64,000 nt of DNA from a virus. Its lineage: Duplodnaviria > Heunggongvirae > Uroviricota > Caudoviricetes. The position numbers and the translations under genes are program-made. Position 1 is the stretch's first letter. The number at the start of each line of letters is the position of its first letter. The stretch covers positions 1 to 64,000 of the IMG/VR virus record IMGVR_UViG_3300048587_000389; one strand, given 5' to 3'. Shown here in pieces: positions 12,229-37,503 of this stretch. Below the pieces are notes generated by a model. The model saw nothing but the letters and a program-made list of their open reading frames with translations. It was not told where the DNA came from and ran no database searches.

Positions 12229-12313
12229 GGAAGCGTAGCATAGTGGACGAATGCACCGGCTTTGAAACCCGGAGATCTGAAAGGGTTCGTGGGTCCGAAT
12301 CCCACCGCTTCCG
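12229..12313 (+). tRNA. tRNA-Ser (anticodon UGA), class II with long variable arm
   Basis: acceptor GGAAGCG/CGCTTCC, loop TTTGAAA (anticodon stem has 31-39 mismatch), long V-arm, T-arm GTGGGTCCGAATCCCAC. Confidence 0.55.
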
Positions 12314-12458
12314 CAGAGTAAATGATTTGCAGCCCGTATCCCGGTCTGGTTAAGACTGCAAAATCATGAGCCGTGGCTACCTTGCCCGTAAGGGTGCTGC
12401 AATCAGCTTAATTGTTATGACAACTGAATGGTGTTGGCAATCCGGCTCTACTCTAAAT
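12314..12458 (+). ncRNA. structured non-tRNA insert between tRNA-Ser and tRNA-Asp (candidate small RNA)
   Basis: long stem ATGATTTGCAG...CTGCAAAATCAT, CCCGTAAGGG GNRA-type hairpin, no T-arm consensus, no ORF. Confidence 0.3.
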
Positions 12459-19089: not shown

Positions 19090-19668
19090 ATGAAAGCATT
19101 GCTAATAGTCTTAGCGATCTTTGGTGTTTTCGGACTATGGATGTTCGGATCCATAAAAGGAACATACAACTCGTTGGTCACTCAACGAAGCGCTGTAGAC
19201 AGACAATATAGTGATATCCAGGCTCAACTGCAACGAAGAGCAGATCTTATTCCAAACTTAGTGGCAACCACTAAAGGCGCCATGAAGCATGAACAGGCAG
19301 TCTTTGAAGACATCTCAAAAGCTCAAGCAGCTTTTACGAGAGCACCTCAAGGATCTAGCGAACAGCTCGATGCATACAACGGTTTAGGAACAGCTCTCCG
19401 CGGTTACATGGTTGTTGCGCAGCAATATCCACAACTAGCTGCTCTAGATATTGTCAAAGATTTGAATACGAATCTTGATGGTAGTGAGAACAGAATTAGT
19501 GTGGCACGTCAGAGATATAATGAGGAAGTTGAGAAATACAATAACTCTCTCATGAAGTTCCCTGGCAATCTTATTGCTAACTTCTTTGACTTCGAGAAGA
19601 AAGATTACTTCGCAGTTCAGTCTCCTGAAGATGAAAAAGCTCCAGAGATTGATATGACATTGGAGTAA
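19090..19668 (+). CDS. lemA: LemA-family membrane protein
   Basis: N-terminal TM, RRADLIPNLV and YNNSLMKFPGNLIA motifs typical of LemA. Confidence 0.65.
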   Translation: MKALLIVLAIFGVFGLWMFGSIKGTYNSLVTQRSAVDRQYSDIQAQLQRRADLIPNLVATTKGAMKHEQAVFEDISKAQAAFTRAPQGSSEQLDAYNGLGTALRGYMVVAQQYPQLAALDIVKDLNTNLDGSENRISVARQRYNEEVEKYNNSLMKFPGNLIANFFDFEKKDYFAVQSPEDEKAPEIDMTLE

Positions 19669-19718
19669 CAAAAGCAGAAGAAGTCAAAACACGATTAACA
19701 AAATAAAAGGAGCAAAAT

Positions 19719-20984
19719 ATGATTAGCTACGTAGTTGTGGAGCCCAATAAGGCACACGTAGTAGTAACAATGGGGAGAGGACGCAAAGTTTATCACCCAT
19801 CAAAAGAAGGATCGGCAAGTGCTTATTGGTACATCGGTCTTTTAATGAGACGTATCATCGTATCTCTTGAGAACGTAAAGCATGAGATTAATGATATCGT
19901 TCTAAGAGACAAGAATGTGGCACCATTCAACTGTGACATCACATGTTGGTTTAAGATCACAGATCCTCAACTTGCAGCAGAAAAGCTTGATGTAGATGAA
20001 GATGGCAACATCATGCAGTCTATTCGAGAAACACTCAATGCTCAAGTTCAAGGTGTAGCAAGAGACGCTGCAATGAAACAAGAGATTCTTGAATTGATGC
20101 GTGACCGCAAAACATTCAGTGAGACTCTCAAATCAGTGGTCAACGGTGATCTTGATGAGTGGGGTGTCCAATTAGTGAAACTCGAAATCATTGACTTTAC
20201 TGATGTTCCAAACAGCAGTGTCATTAAAGATTACGAAGCACGAAGCCAAGCAGAGATCAGTTCTTTGACTCGTATTAAAGTTGCAGAACAAGATCAACTT
20301 GCTCAAGTTAAAGAAGCAGTAGCAAAGAAAACTGCTGAACAAGCAAATATCGATGCTGATCAAGTAATTGAGTTGCGTACCATTGAGAAAGAGCAAACAG
20401 TTGGTGAACGTAAAGAAGCTTCAAGACTTGAAGTTGCAAAGGCTGCTGAAAAAGCAAACACTCAAGAAGTTTTGGCGCAAAAGACCAAAGTTCTTGGTGA
20501 AGCTGAATACACTGCTTTGGCTTTGAAGAAGAAAGCAGAAGGTGAGAAAGACGCTACAATTGAAGAGGCAACAGGTAAAGCAGAGGCTGTTAAGCTTGAG
20601 GCAGAAGCACAAGCAGAAGCTAAGACAAAGACTGGTACTGCTGAAGCAGAAGTCATTCGTCAAACTGGTACTGCTGAAGCTGATGCTACTGAAAAGAAAG
20701 CTGAGGCTCAGAAGAAATTCACAGATGTGTCCAAAGATATTGAGTTGGCTAAACTTGCTGCTGAAGTCATCAAAGTCAAGTTCACCTCAATGGCTGCTGC
20801 AGTAGAAAAAGCTAATGTCAATGTGGTTACACCAGACATGAAGTTTATGGGCTTCGGAGCAGAAGAAGGTGCAGGAATTGGCGCAATGGTGAAAGCTCTT
20901 CAATCTGTATCAGGTATTGACTTACCAAAAGCAGTTGAAGCAGGTGCAAAAGCATTAGCAAAGCCAACCACAACAAAGGCTTAA
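19719..20984 (+). CDS. SPFH/band-7 (flotillin-like) protein with long A/E/K-rich coiled coil
   Basis: N-terminal SPFH-like domain then about 200 aa of AEAKT-type repeats. Confidence 0.5.
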   Translation: MISYVVVEPNKAHVVVTMGRGRKVYHPSKEGSASAYWYIGLLMRRIIVSLENVKHEINDIVLRDKNVAPFNCDITCWFKITDPQLAAEKLDVDEDGNIMQSIRETLNAQVQGVARDAAMKQEILELMRDRKTFSETLKSVVNGDLDEWGVQLVKLEIIDFTDVPNSSVIKDYEARSQAEISSLTRIKVAEQDQLAQVKEAVAKKTAEQANIDADQVIELRTIEKEQTVGERKEASRLEVAKAAEKANTQEVLAQKTKVLGEAEYTALALKKKAEGEKDATIEEATGKAEAVKLEAEAQAEAKTKTGTAEAEVIRQTGTAEADATEKKAEAQKKFTDVSKDIELAKLAAEVIKVKFTSMAAAVEKANVNVVTPDMKFMGFGAEEGAGIGAMVKALQSVSGIDLPKAVEAGAKALAKPTTTKA

Positions 20985-20985
20985 T

Positions 20986-21132
20986 ATGATGGTCTACAAG
21001 GTTATTATCATGGAAGATGAATATGTCCTTGAAGATCTCCTTAACGAGTGGGCCGCCGAAGGATGGCGGCTTCACTCTGTTGAGTCGGAGTATAGAACAA
21101 ACATTATAATTTTTGAAAAGGAGAAGGTATGA
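20986..21132 (+). CDS. small protein (48 aa)
   Basis: ATG overlaps previous stop; below track cut-off. Confidence 0.3.
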   Translation: MMVYKVIIMEDEYVLEDLLNEWAAEGWRLHSVESEYRTNIIIFEKEKV

Positions 21133-21320
21133 ATATAAATCGCATTGTACGATTTGTCAAACTGGTCATTACAGTAATTGACGACATTTGGAGAATAAGC
21201 GCTTGGGAGAATGTGACTTGGTCATTTAATGGTACAAATGATGCAACAACACATCAGAAAAAGAGAGCTAATATCAAAGCCAAAGCAACAAAAGAGCACG
21301 GCACATTCAAAGATAAATAA
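21129..21320 (+). CDS. hypothetical small protein
   Basis: ATGA overlap with previous ORF. Confidence 0.4.
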   Translation: MNINRIVRFVKLVITVIDDIWRISAWENVTWSFNGTNDATTHQKKRANIKAKATKEHGTFKDK

Positions 21321-21329
21321 GGAGCACCT

Positions 21330-22100
21330 ATGAAGAAAATCATAGTCTTAGTTGCCCTCTTTGCTTTGTCTGTTACAACAGCTTTCGCAAAGTTCTCAAC
21401 TGGACTTCCAAACCCAAAAGCGTATGTCAGTGACTTTGCAAATGTCATTAGTCAAGAAGCAGAAGATCGCATCAATGAGAAACTCGACTACACAAAGAAG
21501 ATGACCACAAACGAAGTGGCAGTCGTTACGATTAAGAATCTCGGAGATGCATCAATAGAAGAGTACGGAATTGCTTTGGCTGATGAATGGAAGCCTGGAA
21601 CGGAAGAGGCAGACAACGGTGTCATTATGTTGTTTGCAATGGAAAATAGAAAAATGCGCATAGAAGTCGGTCAAGGACTTGAAGGAAAGCTTACAGATGT
21701 CAAAGCAAAGCGCATTTTAGATGATGTCATCAGACCAGAGTTCAAAGCAGAAAATTATGATGCTGGTGTTGAAAAAGGTGTAGATGAGGTTCTCCGAATA
21801 ATAAACTCATCAGAATCGGCAACAGTTGCTGAGCAGGAGACCACACAGAGTCCCAAAAAAGGCATCGGATTCTGGGGGTGGATGGTTATTATAATCATAG
21901 TTTTTGTGATTTTGGGCATACTAGGAGCTATCCTAGATGATGGTTCAGGAGGCACAACATCTTTTGACAGTGGTGGAGGTGGATTCTCTGGAGGATCGTT
22001 TACAAGTTTTAGCAGTAGCGATTCATCTGACAGTGGAAGCAGCTTTGACGGCTTCTCAGGTGGAAGCTTTAGCGGAGGCGGAGCCTCAGGAGGATGGTAA
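21330..22100 (+). CDS. TPM-domain (TLP18.3/DUF477-type) membrane protein with Gly/Ser-rich tail
   Basis: signal/TM, YVSDFANVIS ... GVIMLFAMENRKMRIEVGQGLE pattern of TPM phosphatase domain, TM, C-terminal GFSGGSFSGGGASGGW. Confidence 0.55.
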   Translation: MKKIIVLVALFALSVTTAFAKFSTGLPNPKAYVSDFANVISQEAEDRINEKLDYTKKMTTNEVAVVTIKNLGDASIEEYGIALADEWKPGTEEADNGVIMLFAMENRKMRIEVGQGLEGKLTDVKAKRILDDVIRPEFKAENYDAGVEKGVDEVLRIINSSESATVAEQETTQSPKKGIGFWGWMVIIIIVFVILGILGAILDDGSGGTTSFDSGGGGFSGGSFTSFSSSDSSDSGSSFDGFSGGSFSGGGASGGW

Positions 22101-22541: not shown

Positions 22542-22615
22542 GGGAGTATAATGTTAGAGGTCTAGCATATCACTCTTCCAAAGTGAAAGGGCCAGTTCGA
22601 ATCTGGTTACTCCCT
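22542..22615 (+). tRNA. tRNA-Gly (anticodon UCC)
   Basis: acceptor GGGAGTA/TACTCCC, anticodon stem TCACT/AGTGA, loop CTTCCAA. Confidence 0.75.
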
Positions 22616-22813: not shown

Positions 22814-22887
22814 GGGACATTAGTTCAGCGGTCAAGAACACCAAGCTTATACCTTGGGAGTCGTAGGTTCGAATCCTACATGTCCCA
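22814..22887 (+). tRNA. tRNA-Ile (anticodon UAU)
   Basis: acceptor GGGACAT/ATGTCCC, anticodon stem CCAAG/CTTGG, loop CTTATAC. Confidence 0.7.
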
Positions 22888-22954
22888 CACTGTCTTTTGG
22901 GAGTAACTGATACTACCGCAGGTACTTCAGCACAGCCTCACCATAAGACGGTAT

Positions 22955-24619: not shown

Positions 24620-24692
24620 TGCTCTGTAGTTCAACGGATCAGAACACATCCCTGCGAAGGATGAAATGAGAGTTCGATTCTCTCTGGAGCAA
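24620..24692 (+). tRNA. tRNA-Arg (anticodon GCG)
   Basis: anticodon stem CATCC/GGATG, loop CTGCGAA; acceptor has two GU pairs. Confidence 0.5.
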
Positions 24693-24789
24693 CAAAGACA
24701 GATATAAAAGCGTTATGAGTCTCCGTAATGAGCCTCATCTGTGCACAAAAACAAAACTACAAGTTGCAACGAAGCTTGTCTGTCAAAAT

Positions 24790-24877: not shown

Positions 24878-25204
24878 ATGACACTTAATGATTATCAAAA
24901 GAAGGCTATCATAACAGCAATCTACCCTTCTTTGTATGCAGTAGTCTACCCAGCACTCGGATTGAGTGGCGAAGCAGGTGAAGTAGCAGAGAAAGTCAAA
25001 AAGATAATCAGAGACAAGTCAGGTGTGGTTGATGAGGCCACAAAAGAAGCTATCAAAAAAGAACTTGGTGATGTGCTTTGGTATGTAAGTGCACTCTCTA
25101 GAGATCTCGGATTCACACTAGAGGAAGTAGCACAAGCTAATATAGATAAACTAACCAAAAGACATCAAGAAAACAAGATTCATGGCGAAGGCGATGATCG
25201 TTGA
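24878..25204 (+). CDS. MazG-like nucleotide pyrophosphohydrolase
   Basis: LGLSGEAGEVAEKVKK and ELGDVLWYVSALSRDLGFTLEEV, all-alpha NTP-PPase signature. Confidence 0.65.
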   Translation: MTLNDYQKKAIITAIYPSLYAVVYPALGLSGEAGEVAEKVKKIIRDKSGVVDEATKEAIKKELGDVLWYVSALSRDLGFTLEEVAQANIDKLTKRHQENKIHGEGDDR

Positions 25205-25374: not shown

Positions 25375-25403
25375 TTTACAGTATACTATAAACGTGATAT
25401 AAT
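25375..25403 (+). promoter_or_regulatory. promoter TTTACA(17)TGaTATAAT, followed by 15-codon mini-ORF and terminator
   Basis: preceded by three direct GTATACA repeats. Confidence 0.45.
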
Positions 25404-25494: not shown

Positions 25495-25518
25495 AAGCCT
25501 CACTTAGAGGCTTTTTTA
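25495..25518 (+). terminator. rho-independent terminator (or attenuator) before tRNA-Tyr
   Basis: AAGCCTCACTTAGAGGCTT hairpin then TTTTTT. Confidence 0.55.
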
Positions 25519-25528
25519 GTATCTATAT

Positions 25529-25612
25529 GCTGTGTTGGCCGAGTGGATAAAGGCGGCAGACTGTAAATCTGTCACTCATAGAGTTACGGGAGTTCGAATC
25601 TCTCACACAGCA
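25529..25612 (+). tRNA. tRNA-Tyr (anticodon GUA), class II
   Basis: acceptor GCTGTGT/ACACAGC, loop CTGTAAA, long variable arm, T-arm GGGAGTTCGAATCTCTC. Confidence 0.75.
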
Positions 25613-25839: not shown

Positions 25840-25913
25840 GTCCGTGTGGCCAAATGGGTAAAGGCTCTAGTCTTAGAAACTAGGATGTGCGAGTTCGAAT
25901 CTCGCCATGGACA
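25840..25913 (+). tRNA. atypical tRNA, anticodon UAG (Leu), Leu-type 3-bp D-stem and 11-nt D-loop but short variable arm
   Basis: acceptor GTCCGTG/CATGGAC, D GCC-AAATGGGTAAA-GGC, anticodon stem CTAGT/ACTAG, loop CTTAGAA, 5-nt V region, discriminator A. Confidence 0.5.
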
Positions 25914-25917
25914 CAAT

Positions 25918-25997
25918 GCCGAAGTGGTGGAATTGGAATACACGTATGCCTAAGGAGCATATTCTTCGGATTGAGAGTTCGAGTCTCTCCTTCGGCA
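25918..25997 (+). tRNA. tRNA-Leu (anticodon AAG) with 11-nt variable arm
   Basis: acceptor GCCGAAG/CTTCGGC, D GTG-GAATTGGAATA-CAC, anticodon stem TATGC/GCATA, loop CTAAGGA, V-arm TTCTTCGGATT. Confidence 0.55.
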
Positions 25998-26071
25998 CAT
26001 TGTATTGAAAGTCAGAAAGCCTCTACTGCGGTGAAATAACGATGGGGAATGGCGTCCCCCAATACAACCAT

Positions 26072-26145
26072 GCCCGTATGGTGAAATGGGTAAACACAAC
26101 CGCCTCAAAAGCGGCAAGCTACAGGTTCGAGTCCTGTTATGGGCA
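26072..26145 (+). tRNA. atypical tRNA, anticodon CAA (Leu), same short-variable-arm architecture
   Basis: acceptor GCCCGTA/TATGGGC, D GTG-AAATGGGTAAA-CAC, loop CTCAAAA, discriminator A. Confidence 0.5.
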
Positions 26146-26196
26146 CAAGGAAAGGAGGTCACCATGAAATAGGTACAACTATTTTAAGGAGACTAT

Positions 26197-26364
26197 ATGT
26201 CTAAATGGAAGAGAAGGAAAGGTCACCGCATCTCAAGGAAAGATGAGAAGTGGGGCAAATCCGCGGATTGGTCAAGAATGATTCACAAATGGTGGGTTAT
26301 TGACTTATCAAAAAGAATGGAGCTTAGAAATAAGCTTCACCGATTAGACCTCAGCAATTATTGA
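26197..26364 (+). CDS. small basic protein (55 aa)
   Basis: AAGGAG RBS; MSKWKRRKGHRISRKDEKWGK..., Lys/Arg/Trp-rich. Confidence 0.4.
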   Translation: MSKWKRRKGHRISRKDEKWGKSADWSRMIHKWWVIDLSKRMELRNKLHRLDLSNY

Positions 26365-26452
26365 GGAGAGTTGGCAGAGTCTGGGTTATTGCAGCATCCT
26401 GCTAAGATGTCTGGTGAAAGCCACGCAGGTTCGAATCCTGTACTCTCCGCCA
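26365..26452 (+). tRNA. tRNA-Ser (anticodon GCU), class II, CCA encoded
   Basis: acceptor GGAGAGT/ACTCTCC, loop CTGCTAA, long V-arm, T-arm GCAGGTTCGAATCCTGT, GCCA 3' end. Confidence 0.75.
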
Positions 26453-26453
26453 A

Positions 26454-26527
26454 GCCGATGTAGCCAAACGGGTAAAGGCAGCGAGCTTAAACCTCGTAAT
26501 CTGTGGGTTCGAATCCCACCATCGGCA
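26454..26527 (+). tRNA. atypical tRNA, anticodon UAA (Leu), same short-variable-arm architecture
   Basis: acceptor GCCGATG/CATCGGC, D GCC-AAACGGGTAAA-GGC, anticodon stem GCGAG/CTCGT, loop CTTAAAC, discriminator A. Confidence 0.5.
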
Positions 26528-26531
26528 CCTG

Positions 26532-26563
26532 CTATTTACAATAGTATTCGAGTATGTTATAAT
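26532..26563 (+). promoter_or_regulatory. promoter GCTATTTACAA(17)TATAAT before tRNA-Thr
   Basis: family motif. Confidence 0.5.
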
Positions 26564-34471: not shown

Positions 34472-35080
34472 CTAGAGTTTTCGGTCAGATCCGTCTTTCC
34501 AAAACTTTGTCTTGCGCAGATAATGTTCTCTTCTGGCAATGTCCCATGCCTCCATACGGCTAATATTGCTCAATCTATCTGCTAACTTGATCATTATTCC
34601 GTGCTGTGACTTCAATCTAGGAAAATATCTTCCGTACGAGTCTTTTTCACCTTCATGAGTCACCTCCATCACTAAATCTGCAATTTCTTTCCCAAAATTG
34701 TCCAATAACTCATCATACGATGTATTTGTGTCCTCAATTGTGTCATGCAGTAACCCTGCAGCTAAAACAGCCTCATTTTTTGTTACTTTTTGCAAAATAT
34801 TGAACACGTTGAGTAAATGCGCATCAAAATATGACTTTCCTTCATCATCTAGTTGATCTTTGTGCTTACTTTGCGCAAAACGATATGCTCTGCCTACTAC
34901 CATGGGCAAAGAACCAACATATTCAGCATCTCTGCATATATCACACCCTTCTGGGTAATGAACATGGTTGCAGAAGCCGCTCGGGTTAGCAAGCTCTTTC
35001 TGAAAGCCGCAGTGCTTACAAAATAGATCTGGGCGCATTATTTTAAGTCTGCGCTCTTCACTTTTGCTATGGATTTTCAT
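34472..35080 (-). CDS. SpoT/Mesh1-like HD-domain (p)ppGpp hydrolase with N-terminal zinc ribbon (small alarmone hydrolase)
   Basis: AAGLLHDTIEDT and KLADRLSN motifs of RelA/SpoT hydrolase domain; CKHCG ... CDIC ribbon. Confidence 0.6.
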   Translation of the reverse strand: MKIHSKSEERRLKIMRPDLFCKHCGFQKELANPSGFCNHVHYPEGCDICRDAEYVGSLPMVVGRAYRFAQSKHKDQLDDEGKSYFDAHLLNVFNILQKVTKNEAVLAAGLLHDTIEDTNTSYDELLDNFGKEIADLVMEVTHEGEKDSYGRYFPRLKSQHGIMIKLADRLSNISRMEAWDIARREHYLRKTKFWKDGSDRKL

Positions 35081-36348: not shown

Positions 36349-37503
36349 CTAATCCTTGTAGGGATCATAAATATCTTTGCCGGCCATAGCAACTCCGACC
36401 GGTGTGAGCTGATGAAGTATTTCGATAGTGCCTTCATGATATGCAAGCACTTCGTTTAATTTTTTGTAAGCGTCTGGAGCCTCATCTGCTCCGCCACCCT
36501 TGAGGATGACTCCTCTTTCTCCAGCTTCCCACTGTACGACTTCCCAATCAATCTTTTTCTTAGCTTGACTGCGACTTAGAGCTCTTCCGGCACCATGTAC
36601 TGTAGTATATAGCGCTTCTTTAGAAGTGTCAGAGTCGATTCCACGGAGTATCACAGAGTTGTCCATCATATTCGAGCCAACAAATCCGAGCTGTCCAGGG
36701 AATGCCGGAGTACATCCTTTGCGGACTACCCAATACTTTTTCCCATAATGCTCTTCCTGCCAAGCAAAGTTGTGATGGTTGTGAATCTCTTCTACTGCTC
36801 TTGTCTGTAATATGTCCAAAACTTCTTCAACAACTGCATTACGGCCTGCATAAGCATATTCGCCAGCAAGTGTCATTGCTTCAATGTAAGCCTGACCTAA
36901 GTCAGTGCGCACATCAAAGAGAATAGGTGGACTGTCCATCTCTCCTTCATTTGCATGTTCATGGAATTCTTTTCCTTGATTAAGTGCTATAAATCCTGAA
37001 GCTGTCTTGTGGCCGAATCCTCTTGAACCGAAGTGTACTCCGATCCAGACAAATCCGTTCTCGTCTTTGAAGAGGTCAACATAATGGTTTCCACTACCAA
37101 CTGTTCCCAGCTGGTTAACCGCAAGATCATAAAGTTTACGTTGCGGCTCAAATTTAGCATCTTTGATGTGTTGTAAGACAATGTCATCCACTTTTTTCTT
37201 ATTTGTGCGACCAACGCCGAAGGATACTCTTTCAACAATTTCGTCCATAATCTTTCGAATGTCACCAAGATCTTCGATCTTAATATCAGTTCGAACGGCT
37301 TTGTTACCACACCCAATGTCATATCCCACACCGCTTGGAGAAATGAAATACTCATACGCAACAGTTCCGCCAATAGGCATTGAATAACCCACATGATGAT
37401 CAGCTGAAAGAACTGCATATTCGGCGTCTCCTGCTTCTGTGCATCTTATAAGTTGAGCATGTGCTCGCTGGTCTAATGGACCAAATGTTTTTACTTTTGT
37501 CAT
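36349..37503 (-). CDS. rtcB: RtcB-family RNA 3'-phosphate/5'-OH ligase
   Basis: GYDIGCGN, GSGNHYVDLF, HFGSRGFGHKTA, HNHHNF, VVRKGCT, TVHGAGR (RtcB metal and GTP-binding motifs). Confidence 0.8.
   Translation of the reverse strand: MTKVKTFGPLDQRAHAQLIRCTEAGDAEYAVLSADHHVGYSMPIGGTVAYEYFISPSGVGYDIGCGNKAVRTDIKIEDLGDIRKIMDEIVERVSFGVGRTNKKKVDDIVLQHIKDAKFEPQRKLYDLAVNQLGTVGSGNHYVDLFKDENGFVWIGVHFGSRGFGHKTASGFIALNQGKEFHEHANEGEMDSPPILFDVRTDLGQAYIEAMTLAGEYAYAGRNAVVEEVLDILQTRAVEEIHNHHNFAWQEEHYGKKYWVVRKGCTPAFPGQLGFVGSNMMDNSVILRGIDSDTSKEALYTTVHGAGRALSRSQAKKKIDWEVVQWEAGERGVILKGGGADEAPDAYKKLNEVLAYHEGTIEILHQLTPVGVAMAGKDIYDPYKD

What the first reader, a model, noticed from the sequence alone, without database searches (positions are those of the whole stretch)
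25840..26527. Three paralogous tRNAs with Leu-type D-arms and Leu anticodons (UAG, CAA, UAA) but no long variable arm
Hand-folding gives three 74-nt tRNAs (25840-25913, 26072-26145, 26454-26527). Each has a 3-bp D-stem and 11-nt D-loop (AAATGGGTAAA / AAACGGGTAAA) as in class II tRNA-Leu, discriminator A73 and a 5-nt variable region. All three anticodons decode leucine codons. A fourth, tRNA-Leu(AAG) at 25918, keeps an 11-nt variable arm. Bacterial and phage tRNA-Leu are normally class II, so consistent loss of the arm across Leu isoacceptors suggests a derived family, an altered LeuRS requirement, or non-canonical function.
Basis: seen in the sequence. Interest (0 to 1): 0.65.

Follow-up and report, generated by a model that had tools for sequence, protein, structure and literature searches.

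The report
Arm-less leucine tRNAs in a phage
This phage carries three genuine leucine tRNAs that lack the long extra arm textbooks give to bacterial leucine tRNAs; the same short form turns out to be common in phages and in Actinomycetota, so this is a real but ordinary member of a little-discussed tRNA type.

Summary
ARAGORN and Rfam call three 74-nt tRNAs with Leu anticodons UAG, CAA and UAA (65-72 bits), each with a 5-nt variable loop, a 3-bp D-stem and A73. A fourth, Leu(AAG), keeps an 11-nt mini-arm. They are not peculiar to this genome. The same design is annotated in cultured phages (E. coli phage 4MG, KVP40-like Vibrio phages, T5-like Proteus, Providencia and Klebsiella phages, Mesorhizobium phage Cp1R7A-A1). 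It occurs in at least 120 IMG/VR contigs and as solitary chromosomal genes in many Actinomycetota. S. coelicolor has a published, LeuRS-charged type I tRNA-Leu. In a scan that ignored arm length, 14 of 82 phage tRNA-Leu(UAR) genes were arm-less. Across 124 family members the cloverleaf covaries strongly and A73 is invariant. The D-arm signature plus A73 occurs in 1 of 1,413 non-Leu phage tRNAs. Ser and Tyr tRNAs in the same arrays keep their arms. All six Leu codons behave as leucine in the window's genes. Best reading: ordinary leucine-decoding tRNAs charged by host LeuRS, which in bacteria needs neither the arm nor the anticodon. Recoding and pseudogene readings are rejected. Charging was not tested. 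New member of a known kind; modest interest.

The parts
25840..25913 (+). Class I (arm-less) tRNA-Leu, anticodon UAG, reading CUA/CUG. Variable loop GAUGU, A73, no encoded CCA.
   Evidence: ARAGORN; Rfam 66.6 bits; cloverleaf parse.
25918..25997 (+). tRNA-Leu, anticodon AAG, the CUY reader. It has an 11-nt mini variable arm UUCUUCGGAUU (a short stem capped by UUCG), G13.A22, G37 and A73.
   Evidence: ARAGORN; Rfam 53.8 bits; parse. Mesorhizobium phage Cp1R7A-A1 Leu(GAG) has the same layout, TCCTTCGGGTT.
26072..26145 (+). Class I (arm-less) tRNA-Leu, anticodon CAA, reading UUG. Variable loop AAGCU, A36-A37-A38, A73.
   Evidence: ARAGORN; Rfam 65.4 bits; parse. IMG/VR contig L001 carries a Leu(UAA) with the same D-arm and the same variable loop.
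26454..26527 (+). Class I (arm-less) tRNA-Leu, anticodon UAA, reading UUA/UUG. Variable loop AAUCU, A73.
   Evidence: ARAGORN; Rfam 71.6 bits, the best tRNA score in the region; parse.
25529..25612 (+). Internal control: tRNA-Tyr(GUA) in the same array keeps a full long variable arm (84-85 nt).
26365..26452 (+). Internal control: tRNA-Ser(GCU), immediately upstream of Leu(UAA), keeps a full long arm (88 nt). The second Ser(UGA), at 12229-12314, does too.

Best explanation
The three genes encode functional elongator tRNAs that are charged with leucine by the host's LeuRS and read UUA/UUG, UUG and CUA/CUG during phage translation. Leu(AAG) covers CUU/CUC. Together they give this phage, which carries at least 32 tRNAs covering all 20 amino acids, its own full leucine decoding set. 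They work without the long arm because bacterial-type LeuRS does not use the arm or the anticodon. It reads A73 and the shape of the D-loop/T-loop corner (U8:A14, A15:U48, G18G19, A20a, U54:A58), and all of these are present. Losing the arm therefore costs little for Leu, whereas Ser and Tyr tRNAs need theirs. The arm has been shortened or lost many times in phages and in Actinomycetota. The window's genes were inherited or acquired already arm-less, not truncated three times in this genome. Shown here: gene structure, family membership, covariation, Leu-specific signature, and the leucine meaning of the codons. Inferred: aminoacylation by host LeuRS and use in translation.
For: The tRNA calls and scores are strong and the cloverleaf is complete. 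Every E. coli Leu identity element listed in review PMC9976931 is present in all three tRNAs. The same review reports that arm-less and anticodon-arm-less E. coli tRNA-Leu variants remain chargeable. Features that the search pattern did not specify are the Leu hallmarks: A73 in 249 of 249 well-folded hits, and a 13:22 mismatch in 243 of 249. The cloverleaf is paired in 98.1% of cells, against 58% in shuffles and at most 46% in slid controls, and all 20 pairs show compensatory changes. The D-arm signature plus A73 occurs in 1 of 1,413 non-Leu phage tRNAs. Arm loss is specific to Leu: in the same loci 168 of 215 Leu tRNAs are 79 nt or shorter, while 84 of 85 Ser and 33 of 41 Tyr tRNAs are 84 nt or longer. 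Codon meaning was tested over 3,241 codons aligned to a syntenic relative. TTA, TTG, CTA and CTG align with Leu in 49-67% of cases, against 64-65% for CTT and CTC, and they interchange freely with CTT. All six codons also sit at conserved-Leu columns of SHMT. There is precedent: S. coelicolor type I tRNA-Leu(CAA) is charged by its own LeuRS and by human mitochondrial LeuRS. Cultured phages carry the same design, including E. coli K-12 phage 4MG, KVP40-like phi-Grn1, Proteus phage Stubb and Providencia phage PR1, Klebsiella phage Sugarland and Mesorhizobium phage Cp1R7A-A1.
Against: No aminoacylation or expression data exist for these tRNAs or, as far as I could find, for any phage arm-less tRNA-Leu. 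E. coli LeuRS failed to charge the S. coelicolor type I tRNA-Leu(CAA) in vitro, so not every bacterial LeuRS accepts every arm-less substrate. The host is unknown; the nearest cellular SHMT homologs are from gut Firmicutes, and the cellular genome with the closest SHMT carries a normal 85-nt tRNA-Leu(UAG). Single-sequence MFE folds of two of the three tRNAs are not perfect cloverleaves, which is usual for tRNAs. The codon test shows what the codons mean, not which tRNA reads them.
Confidence: 0.85

Rival explanations
1. Arm loss is an adaptation, not just a tolerated loss. Arm-less tRNA-Leu would escape a tRNA-targeting nuclease or toxin that recognises type II tRNAs by the long arm. That nuclease could be a host defence, or the phage's own weapon against host tRNA. 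The tRNAs would still decode leucine, so this adds to the main explanation and does not replace it.
For: The window encodes an RtcB RNA ligase at 36349-37503(-) and a near-complete tRNA set. Both are consistent with pressure on the tRNA pool. Phage tRNAs are known to rescue infection from tRNA-cleaving defences (titles and abstracts listed: PARIS, and anticodon-loop escape in PMC10264068). Human SLFN11 cleaves type II tRNAs (reference cited in PMC13056530). The arm-less form is more frequent in phage arrays (14 of 82) than textbook bacterial tRNA sets would suggest.
Against: No bacterial nuclease specific for long-arm tRNAs was found. The one bacterial Schlafen characterised cleaves tRNA-Lys, Ala, Met, Val, Phe and Ile, not type II tRNAs. 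24 of 120 survey loci carry a full-arm Leu beside the arm-less one. Ser and Tyr keep their arms. Actinomycetota carry the arm-less form as an ordinary chromosomal gene, where phage escape cannot be the reason.
Confidence: 0.1
2. The tRNAs have Leu anticodons but another amino-acid identity, so the phage partly recodes UUR and CUR codons. Yeast mitochondria do this with CUN read as Thr, and Candida with CUG read as Ser.
For: Class I architecture with Leu anticodons is how natural CUN reassignments look (my own knowledge).
Against: TTA, TTG, CTA and CTG sit at conserved Leu positions and interchange with CTT and CTC in orthologs. When they differ, the replacements are Ile, Phe, Met and Val, as for ordinary Leu. 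The tRNAs carry the Leu-specific D-arm and A73. They have no G3:U70 (Ala), no G-1 (His) and no long arm (Ser). Most other synthetases need their own anticodon (established identity rules, review).
Confidence: 0.02
3. The genes are decaying pseudogenes, or tRNA-like elements with a non-translational role such as processing punctuation, a primer or a decoy.
For: Phage tRNA arrays do contain tRNA-like RNAs of unknown function, for example the T5 'tRNA-like stable RNA' annotations. No expression data exist here.
Against: Their Rfam scores are among the highest in the array. All stems are intact. The family keeps 98% pairing through hundreds of compensatory changes, and it keeps an invariant A73, a 7-nt anticodon loop with U33, and Leu anticodons only. 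That is the pattern of selection for decoding.
Confidence: 0.03

Closest known systems
Type I tRNA-Leu(CAA) of Streptomyces coelicolor (Fan et al., NAR 2019, PMC6614811)
   Same: It is a bacterial-world tRNA with a Leu anticodon and a short variable loop, and it coexists with arm-bearing tRNA-Leu in one compartment. It has been shown to be leucylated by a single LeuRS. My genome scan shows this type is widespread in Actinomycetota as a solitary chromosomal gene, with the same D-loop and A73.
   Different: That tRNA is chromosomal and a single isoacceptor. In that system A73 is not an identity element, and a LeuRS-specific domain is needed. Here three isoacceptors are arm-less, they sit in a phage tRNA array, and the likely host is not an actinomycete (40% GC; SHMT nearest to Firmicutes).
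Arm-less tRNA-Leu genes annotated in cultured phages: Escherichia phage 4MG, KVP40-like Vibrio phages (phi-Grn1), Demerecviridae of Proteus, Providencia and Klebsiella (Stubb, PR1, Sugarland), and Mesorhizobium phage Cp1R7A-A1
   Same: They share the 74-75 nt design: U8, A14 A15, G18 G19, a 13:22 mismatch, a 5-6 nt variable loop and A73. Cp1R7A-A1 also pairs arm-less CAA and CAG tRNAs with a CUY reader that keeps an 11-nt UUCG-capped mini-arm.
   Different: These phages are unrelated to the window's phage (no DNA match; portal 27% identity or less). Sequence identity to the window's tRNAs is only about 62-76%. Most of them encode CCA, and the window's genes do not. I found no paper that discusses them.
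Animal mitochondrial tRNA-Leu (class I)
   Same: [quoted passage not shown] Human mitochondrial LeuRS also charges the bacterial type I tRNA-Leu.
   Different: Mitochondrial tRNAs have relaxed, often degenerate cores. The phage tRNAs keep a canonical core and score highly against the general tRNA model.
Engineered E. coli tRNA-Leu variants lacking the variable arm (Larkin et al. 2002; Asahara et al. 1993 and 1998, as summarised in PMC9976931)
   Same: They show that a bacterial LeuRS can charge tRNA-Leu without the arm, provided A73 and the D/T-loop corner are intact. Those are the elements conserved here.
   Different: Those are laboratory constructs. The window holds natural genes kept under selection.
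Canonical phage class II tRNA-Leu (T5 Leu(UAG) 85 nt; Ruegeria phage RpAliso; Pelagibacter phage Mosig)
   Same: The D-arm signature and A73 are the same. The D-arm of Mosig Leu(UAA) is nearly identical to that of the window's Leu(CAA).
   Different: They keep a 13-nt or longer variable arm.

Membership tests
tRNA (Rfam RF00005) | Full-length match to the covariance model above the gathering score of 29 bits | tested here: met
   66.6, 65.4 and 71.6 bits, with model positions 1-71 of 71 matched. ARAGORN agrees.
Bacterial tRNA-Leu (identity set as defined for E. coli) | Discriminator A73 | tested here: met
   A73 in all three tRNAs. It is invariant in 249 of 249 family members although the search pattern did not specify it.
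Bacterial tRNA-Leu (identity set as defined for E. coli) | Core tertiary elements: U8:A14, the A15:U48 Levitt pair, G18G19 and A20a in the D-loop, and U54:A58 | tested here: met
   All are present in the three sequences. The element list comes from the review. A15:U48 alone is not Leu-specific in this phage, because several other tRNAs also have it.
Bacterial tRNA-Leu (identity set as defined for E. coli) | Leu-type D-arm: a 3-bp stem with unpaired 13:22 (A22) and a 9-nt AAYNGGYAN loop | tested here: met
   A13.A22 and AAYGGGTAA in all three. With A73, this signature occurs in 1 of 1,413 non-Leu phage tRNAs, against 105 of 137 long-arm Leu tRNAs.
Bacterial tRNA-Leu (identity set as defined for E. 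coli) | Anticodon of the Leu box, with the codons read as leucine | tested here: met
   The anticodons are UAG, CAA and UAA. The matching codons behave as Leu in ortholog and homolog alignments.
Bacterial tRNA-Leu (identity set as defined for E. coli) | Aminoacylation with leucine by LeuRS | not testable with these tools
   This needs biochemistry or charged-tRNA sequencing. The published data are mixed: arm-less E. coli variants are charged, but E. coli LeuRS did not charge the S. coelicolor type I tRNA-Leu.
Class II (type II) tRNA | Long variable arm of more than 10 nt forming a stem-loop | tested here: not met
   The three tRNAs have 5-nt variable loops, and a 74-nt molecule cannot hold an arm. 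Leu(AAG), with 11 nt, is borderline.
Type I tRNA-Leu (as defined in PMC6614811) | Leu anticodon plus a short variable loop in an otherwise canonical cloverleaf, coexisting with arm-bearing tRNA-Leu | tested here: met
   The family-wide cloverleaf is supported by covariation. Only the mini-arm Leu(AAG) coexists with them in the window.

The most novel reading that the evidence does not exclude
Arm-less tRNA-Leu is a phage counter-measure. By dropping the long arm, which marks type II tRNAs, phage leucine tRNAs would become invisible to an arm-recognising tRNA nuclease or toxin while still being charged by LeuRS, which ignores the arm. The nuclease could be a host defence or a phage-encoded weapon against host tRNA. 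The window's RtcB ligase and its near-complete tRNA set would belong to the same tRNA-pool arms race.
Probability: 0.1. Interest if true: 0.7.

Novelty: new member of a known kind. Interest (0 to 1): 0.35.

Why it matters
For this window it matters little. The genes are ordinary leucine tRNAs, and an annotator should label them tRNA-Leu without flagging recoding. The wider by-product is more useful. The rule that bacterial and phage tRNA-Leu are class II has a large, structured exception. In a length-agnostic sample, about one in six phage tRNA-Leu(UAR) genes was arm-less, and about 30% of the UAG isoacceptors. A graded series of mini-arms exists, and the arm-less form is widely present in Actinomycetota. 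Yet the literature I could search treats the single S. coelicolor case as rare. This is natural, large-scale confirmation that bacterial LeuRS does not need the arm while SerRS and TyrRS do. It also gives a ready panel of natural substrates, including one from an E. coli K-12 phage, for testing why E. coli LeuRS rejected the Streptomyces type I tRNA. Isotype-specific tRNA models that expect an arm may mis-score these genes.

Tried and rejected
(1) Close relatives of the phage. Megablast of the Leu region against GenBank phages found nothing. The portal matches known phages at 27% identity or less. A radical-SAM anchor next to the Leu cluster fetched only distant jumbo-phage loci with no Leu tRNAs nearby. 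The one syntenic relative I reached (L258) has no tRNA genes in the 21 kb held, so conservation of these exact genes in sister phages could not be tested.

(2) The lineage-specific D-arm pattern found one viral contig, one metagenome contig (not examined further) and no cellular genome. It was too narrow, and I replaced it with a general pattern.

(3) An exact look-up of the window's own contig failed twice. Only its length, 94,156 bp, and its JGI origin are known.

(4) Recoding is rejected by the codon tests.

(5) Pseudogene status is rejected by scores and covariation.

(6) A phage-encoded LeuRS: the window has no ORF longer than 692 aa, and no synthetase domain appeared among the 20 ORFs I scanned. 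The remaining roughly 30 kb of the contig was not visible.

(7) Schlafen-type nucleases as a driver: the characterised bacterial enzyme is not specific for type II tRNAs.

(8) Literature: eight searches and targeted reads found no paper describing arm-less tRNA-Leu in phages. Subscription-only papers, such as the 1980s T5 tRNA sequencing work and the KVP40 genome paper, could not be searched.

(9) T5 itself carries a normal 85-nt Leu(UAG), so the trait is not general to Demerecviridae.

Full report
1. WHAT IS THERE

The window is part of a tailed phage. It encodes a portal protein, a prohead protease, RtcB, SHMT and a class II-like RNR, at about 40% GC. It carries at least 32 tRNA genes: ARAGORN finds 31, and Rfam adds a tRNA-Gly(UCC) at 22542-22615.

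In the finding's interval ARAGORN calls tRNA-Leu(UAG) at 25840-25914, Leu(AAG) at 25918-25998, Leu(CAA) at 26072-26146 and Leu(UAA) at 26454-26529. Rfam's tRNA model matches the three short genes end to end at 66.6, 65.4 and 71.6 bits against a threshold of 29. Those scores are among the best in the array.

The three short genes share these features:
- a 7-bp acceptor stem and U8;
- a 3-bp D-stem with A13.A22 unpaired;
- the D-loop AAYGGGTAA;
- a 5-nt variable loop ending in U48;
- a canonical T-arm and A73.

Leu(AAG) has an 11-nt variable region, UUCUUCGGAUU. Tyr and both Ser tRNAs keep full arms. The shared D-arm motif occurs three times in the window against none expected. A 74-nt molecule leaves no room for a hidden arm.

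One correction is needed. The three are only 61-65% identical to each other, and each has a closer relative (72-76%) in another phage contig. They are old isoacceptors, not recent duplicates.

2. IS IT UNUSUAL?

It is less unusual than it looks. The D-arm motif led to an IMG/VR contig with a 75-nt Leu(UAA) that has the same D-arm and variable loop as the window's Leu(CAA). Beside it sits a Leu(UAG) with a 9-nt variable region.

BLAST of single tRNAs against GenBank phages then showed short genes annotated tRNA-Leu in cultured phages:
- Mesorhizobium phage Cp1R7A-A1. Its CAA and CAG tRNAs are arm-less and its CUY reader keeps an 11-nt UUCG-capped mini-arm, the same layout as the window.
- KVP40-like Vibrio phage phi-Grn1, Proteus phage Stubb and Providencia phage PR1.
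- Klebsiella phage Sugarland and E. coli K-12 phage 4MG.
- In all, 187 GenBank phage records match the KVP40-type gene.

T5, Ruegeria phage RpAliso and Pelagibacter phage Mosig have normal long-arm Leu tRNAs.

I then wrote a general pattern for an arm-less tRNA-Leu. It specifies U8, A14 A15, G18 G19, A20a, A22, a Leu anticodon, a 5-nt loop ending in U, and the T-loop. It specifies no stems and no discriminator.
- In the window it hits only the three genes.
- In one-genome-per-species bacteria and archaea it also hits at least 120 contigs.

ARAGORN calls every checked viral hit tRNA-Leu at 75-77 nt inside a tRNA array. The cellular hits are mostly solitary chromosomal genes in Actinomycetota, with a median of one tRNA per 8-kb locus. 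That matches the one published bacterial case, S. coelicolor type I tRNA-Leu(CAA), which is charged by its own LeuRS (PMC6614811).

A scan that ignored variable-region length found 82 phage tRNA-Leu(UAR) genes:

| Variable region | Genes | Share |
|---|---|---|
| 5 nt (arm-less) | 14 | 17% |
| 11-12 nt (mini-arm) | 9 | 11% |
| 13 nt or more (full arm) | 59 | 72% |

Among UAG isoacceptors, 10 of 33 are arm-less.

3. ARE THEY REAL, FUNCTIONAL LEUCINE tRNAs?

Four independent lines of evidence say yes.

(a) Unspecified features. Among 249 pattern hits with a complete cloverleaf, the discriminator is A in all 249, and 13:22 is a mismatch in 243.

(b) Covariation. In an ungapped alignment of 124 distinct family members, including the window's three, 98.1% of cells form standard pairs. 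Shuffled controls give 58% and slid controls at most 46%. All 20 pairs show compensatory double changes.

(c) Specificity. Among 1,889 tRNAs that ARAGORN finds in the phage loci, the Leu D-arm signature plus A73 occurs in 1 of 1,413 non-Leu tRNAs. It occurs in 105 of 137 long-arm, 22 of 32 mini-arm and 144 of 175 arm-less Leu tRNAs. The Leu counts are inflated by how the loci were chosen. The non-Leu count is not.

(d) Codon meaning. A syntenic relative (JGI 3300005077, contig Ga0071116_1000073) gave 13 ORF pairs and 3,241 aligned codons. The table shows how often each window codon aligns with Leu in the relative:

| Window codon | Aligned with Leu |
|---|---|
| TTA | 28 of 57 |
| TTG | 46 of 69 |
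| CTA | 20 of 34 |
| CTG | 11 of 21 |
| CTT | 51 of 80 |
| CTC | 32 of 49 |

The replacements are mostly Ile, Phe, Met and Val. The first four codons interchange freely with CTT. In SHMT, all six codons occupy columns that are at least 90% Leu in homologs.

4. HOW IT MOST LIKELY WORKS

The tRNA identity review (PMC9976931) states the E. coli leucine identity set. It is A73, the A15:U48 Levitt pair, G18G19 and A20a, and the D/T-loop contacts G18:U55, G19:C56 and U54:A58. It does not include the anticodon or the long arm, and variants lacking the arm remain chargeable. Every listed element is present in the three tRNAs.

From my own knowledge, SerRS and bacterial TyrRS bind the long arm directly. 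That predicts arm loss should be tolerated only in Leu. The data agree. In the phage loci that carry arm-less Leu, 168 of 215 Leu tRNAs are 79 nt or shorter, but 84 of 85 Ser and 33 of 41 Tyr tRNAs are 84 nt or longer. The window shows the same contrast.

Variable-region lengths form a series of 5, 7, 9, 10, 11, 12 and 13 or more nt. Short UUCG-type capped stems recur, for example TCTTCGGGT in five contigs. This looks like stepwise shortening of an element that LeuRS does not read.

I therefore conclude, with about 0.85 confidence, that these are ordinary leucine-decoding tRNAs charged by the host LeuRS, and that they supply UUR and CUR decoding within a near-complete phage tRNA set. Aminoacylation itself is inferred, not shown.

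5. WHAT REMAINS OPEN

E. coli LeuRS did not charge the S. coelicolor type I tRNA-Leu in vitro. Yet phages of E. coli K-12, Klebsiella, Proteus, Providencia and Vibrio carry arm-less Leu tRNAs. One possible explanation is that the phage tRNAs keep the E. coli determinants, in particular A73, which Streptomyces LeuRS does not use. This is untested.

The host of the window's phage is unknown. The closest cellular SHMT homologs (62% identity) are from gut Firmicutes. No LeuRS is encoded in the window.

Whether arm loss is merely tolerated or is selected remains speculative. Escape from an arm-recognising nuclease is one possibility, and the window does encode RtcB. However, the only characterised bacterial Schlafen nuclease is not specific for type II tRNAs. 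Arm-less and full-arm Leu tRNAs coexist in 24 of 120 loci. And Actinomycetota carry the arm-less form chromosomally.

6. COMPARISON AND NOVELTY

The genes pass every sequence-level test for bacterial tRNA-Leu except the long arm. The arm defines class II architecture, not leucine identity. The genes fit the "type I tRNA-Leu" category of Fan et al. 2019. Identical designs are already deposited and annotated in GenBank phages.

I found no paper that discusses arm-less tRNA-Leu in phages. The searchable library lacks most subscription journals, so this is not proof that none exists.

Verdict: a correct observation, a new member of a known kind, and modest interest (0.35). The survey by-product deserves a short note of its own: roughly one in six phage tRNA-Leu(UAR) genes is arm-less, the loss is specific to Leu, and the form is widespread in Actinomycetota.

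Noticed in passing
window 22542-22615 (+): Rfam finds a tRNA-Gly(UCC) at 52.8 bits that ARAGORN does not call. With it the window has at least 32 tRNAs covering all 20 amino acids.
   Followed up: partly
window 22814-22888, 24620-24693, 25918-25998: Three anticodons are unusual for bacterial systems: Ile(UAU), Arg(GCG) and Leu(AAG). A34 in Leu(AAG) would need deamination to inosine, or would have to read CUU as unmodified A. Most tRNA genes in the array do not encode the CCA end.
   Followed up: no
window 36349-37503 (-), 34472-35080 (-): An RtcB RNA ligase (Pfam E = 5e-68) and a nearby HD-domain protein (HD_4, as found in RelA/SpoT-type hydrolases). Both are consistent with tRNA repair or stress countermeasures in a phage that carries its own tRNA set.
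   Followed up: no
window 19090-22100 (+); L003 1-186: A LemA-like, SPFH/Band-7 and TPM-like membrane gene cluster lies directly upstream of the main tRNA array. Mesorhizobium phage Cp1R7A-A1 also has an HflK/HflC-like SPFH gene just upstream of its tRNA array.
   Followed up: no
window 24878-25204 (+), 26198-26365 (+): Small ORFs are embedded in the tRNA array: a MazG-like 108-aa protein and a very basic 55-aa peptide between Leu(CAA) and Ser(GCU).
   Followed up: no
window 25375-25403 and 26535-26563 (+): Two identical near-consensus extended -10 promoters (TTTACA, 17 nt, TATAAT; 11 of 12 matches) sit inside the array, the second just upstream of tRNA-Thr. A terminator-like hairpin lies at 25495-25513.
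   Followed up: no
window 22814-22888, 26454-26528, 26072-26146 (- strand): Rfam 'Plastid-ycf2 5'UTR' matches, below the gathering score, lie antisense to the tRNAs. They appear to be an artefact of that model resembling an antisense tRNA.
   Followed up: no
L138-L257 (genome-contig loci): Arm-less tRNA-Leu (anticodons UAA 67, CAA 31, UAG 16, CAG 7; all A73) is widespread as a solitary chromosomal gene across Actinomycetota, including Nocardioides, Nocardia, Amycolatopsis, Mycobacterium, Rhodococcus, Bifidobacterium and Corynebacterium. This is far beyond the single S. coelicolor case in the literature I could search. A few multi-copy loci in Planctomycetota, Acidobacteriota and Bacteroidota MAGs look like phage contigs.
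   Followed up: partly
L261 2501-2575 (Escherichia phage 4MG, NC_022968): A phage that grows on E. coli K-12 encodes an arm-less tRNA-Leu(UAA), although E. coli LeuRS was reported not to charge the Streptomyces type I tRNA-Leu (PMC6614811). This is an unexplained discrepancy that could be tested directly.
   Followed up: partly
L001, L023, L040, L070, L085; window 25918-25997; L003 3082-3164: Mini variable arms of 9-12 nt recur. Many are capped by a UUCG-type tetraloop, for example TCTTCGGGT in Leu(UAG) of five unrelated contigs. They are intermediate between class I and class II.
   Followed up: partly
L021, L036, L049, L028, L039: In the surveyed phage arrays ARAGORN also calls suppressor-type tRNAs ('Pyl' CUA in L021 and L036; 'SeC' UCA in L049) and tmRNA genes (L028, L039).
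   Followed up: no
L258 (JGI 3300005077, Ga0071116_1000073, 56689-77927): The closest syntenic relative of the window's phage (SHMT 72%, RNR 67%, a 531-aa ORF 74% identical) has no tRNA genes in the stretch where the window has seven. tRNA content therefore varies sharply between related phages.
   Followed up: partly
A1 columns 1 and 73: The first acceptor pair is G1:U72 in 48 of 124 arm-less phage tRNA-Leu sequences, an unusually high share of wobble pairs at that position.
   Followed up: no
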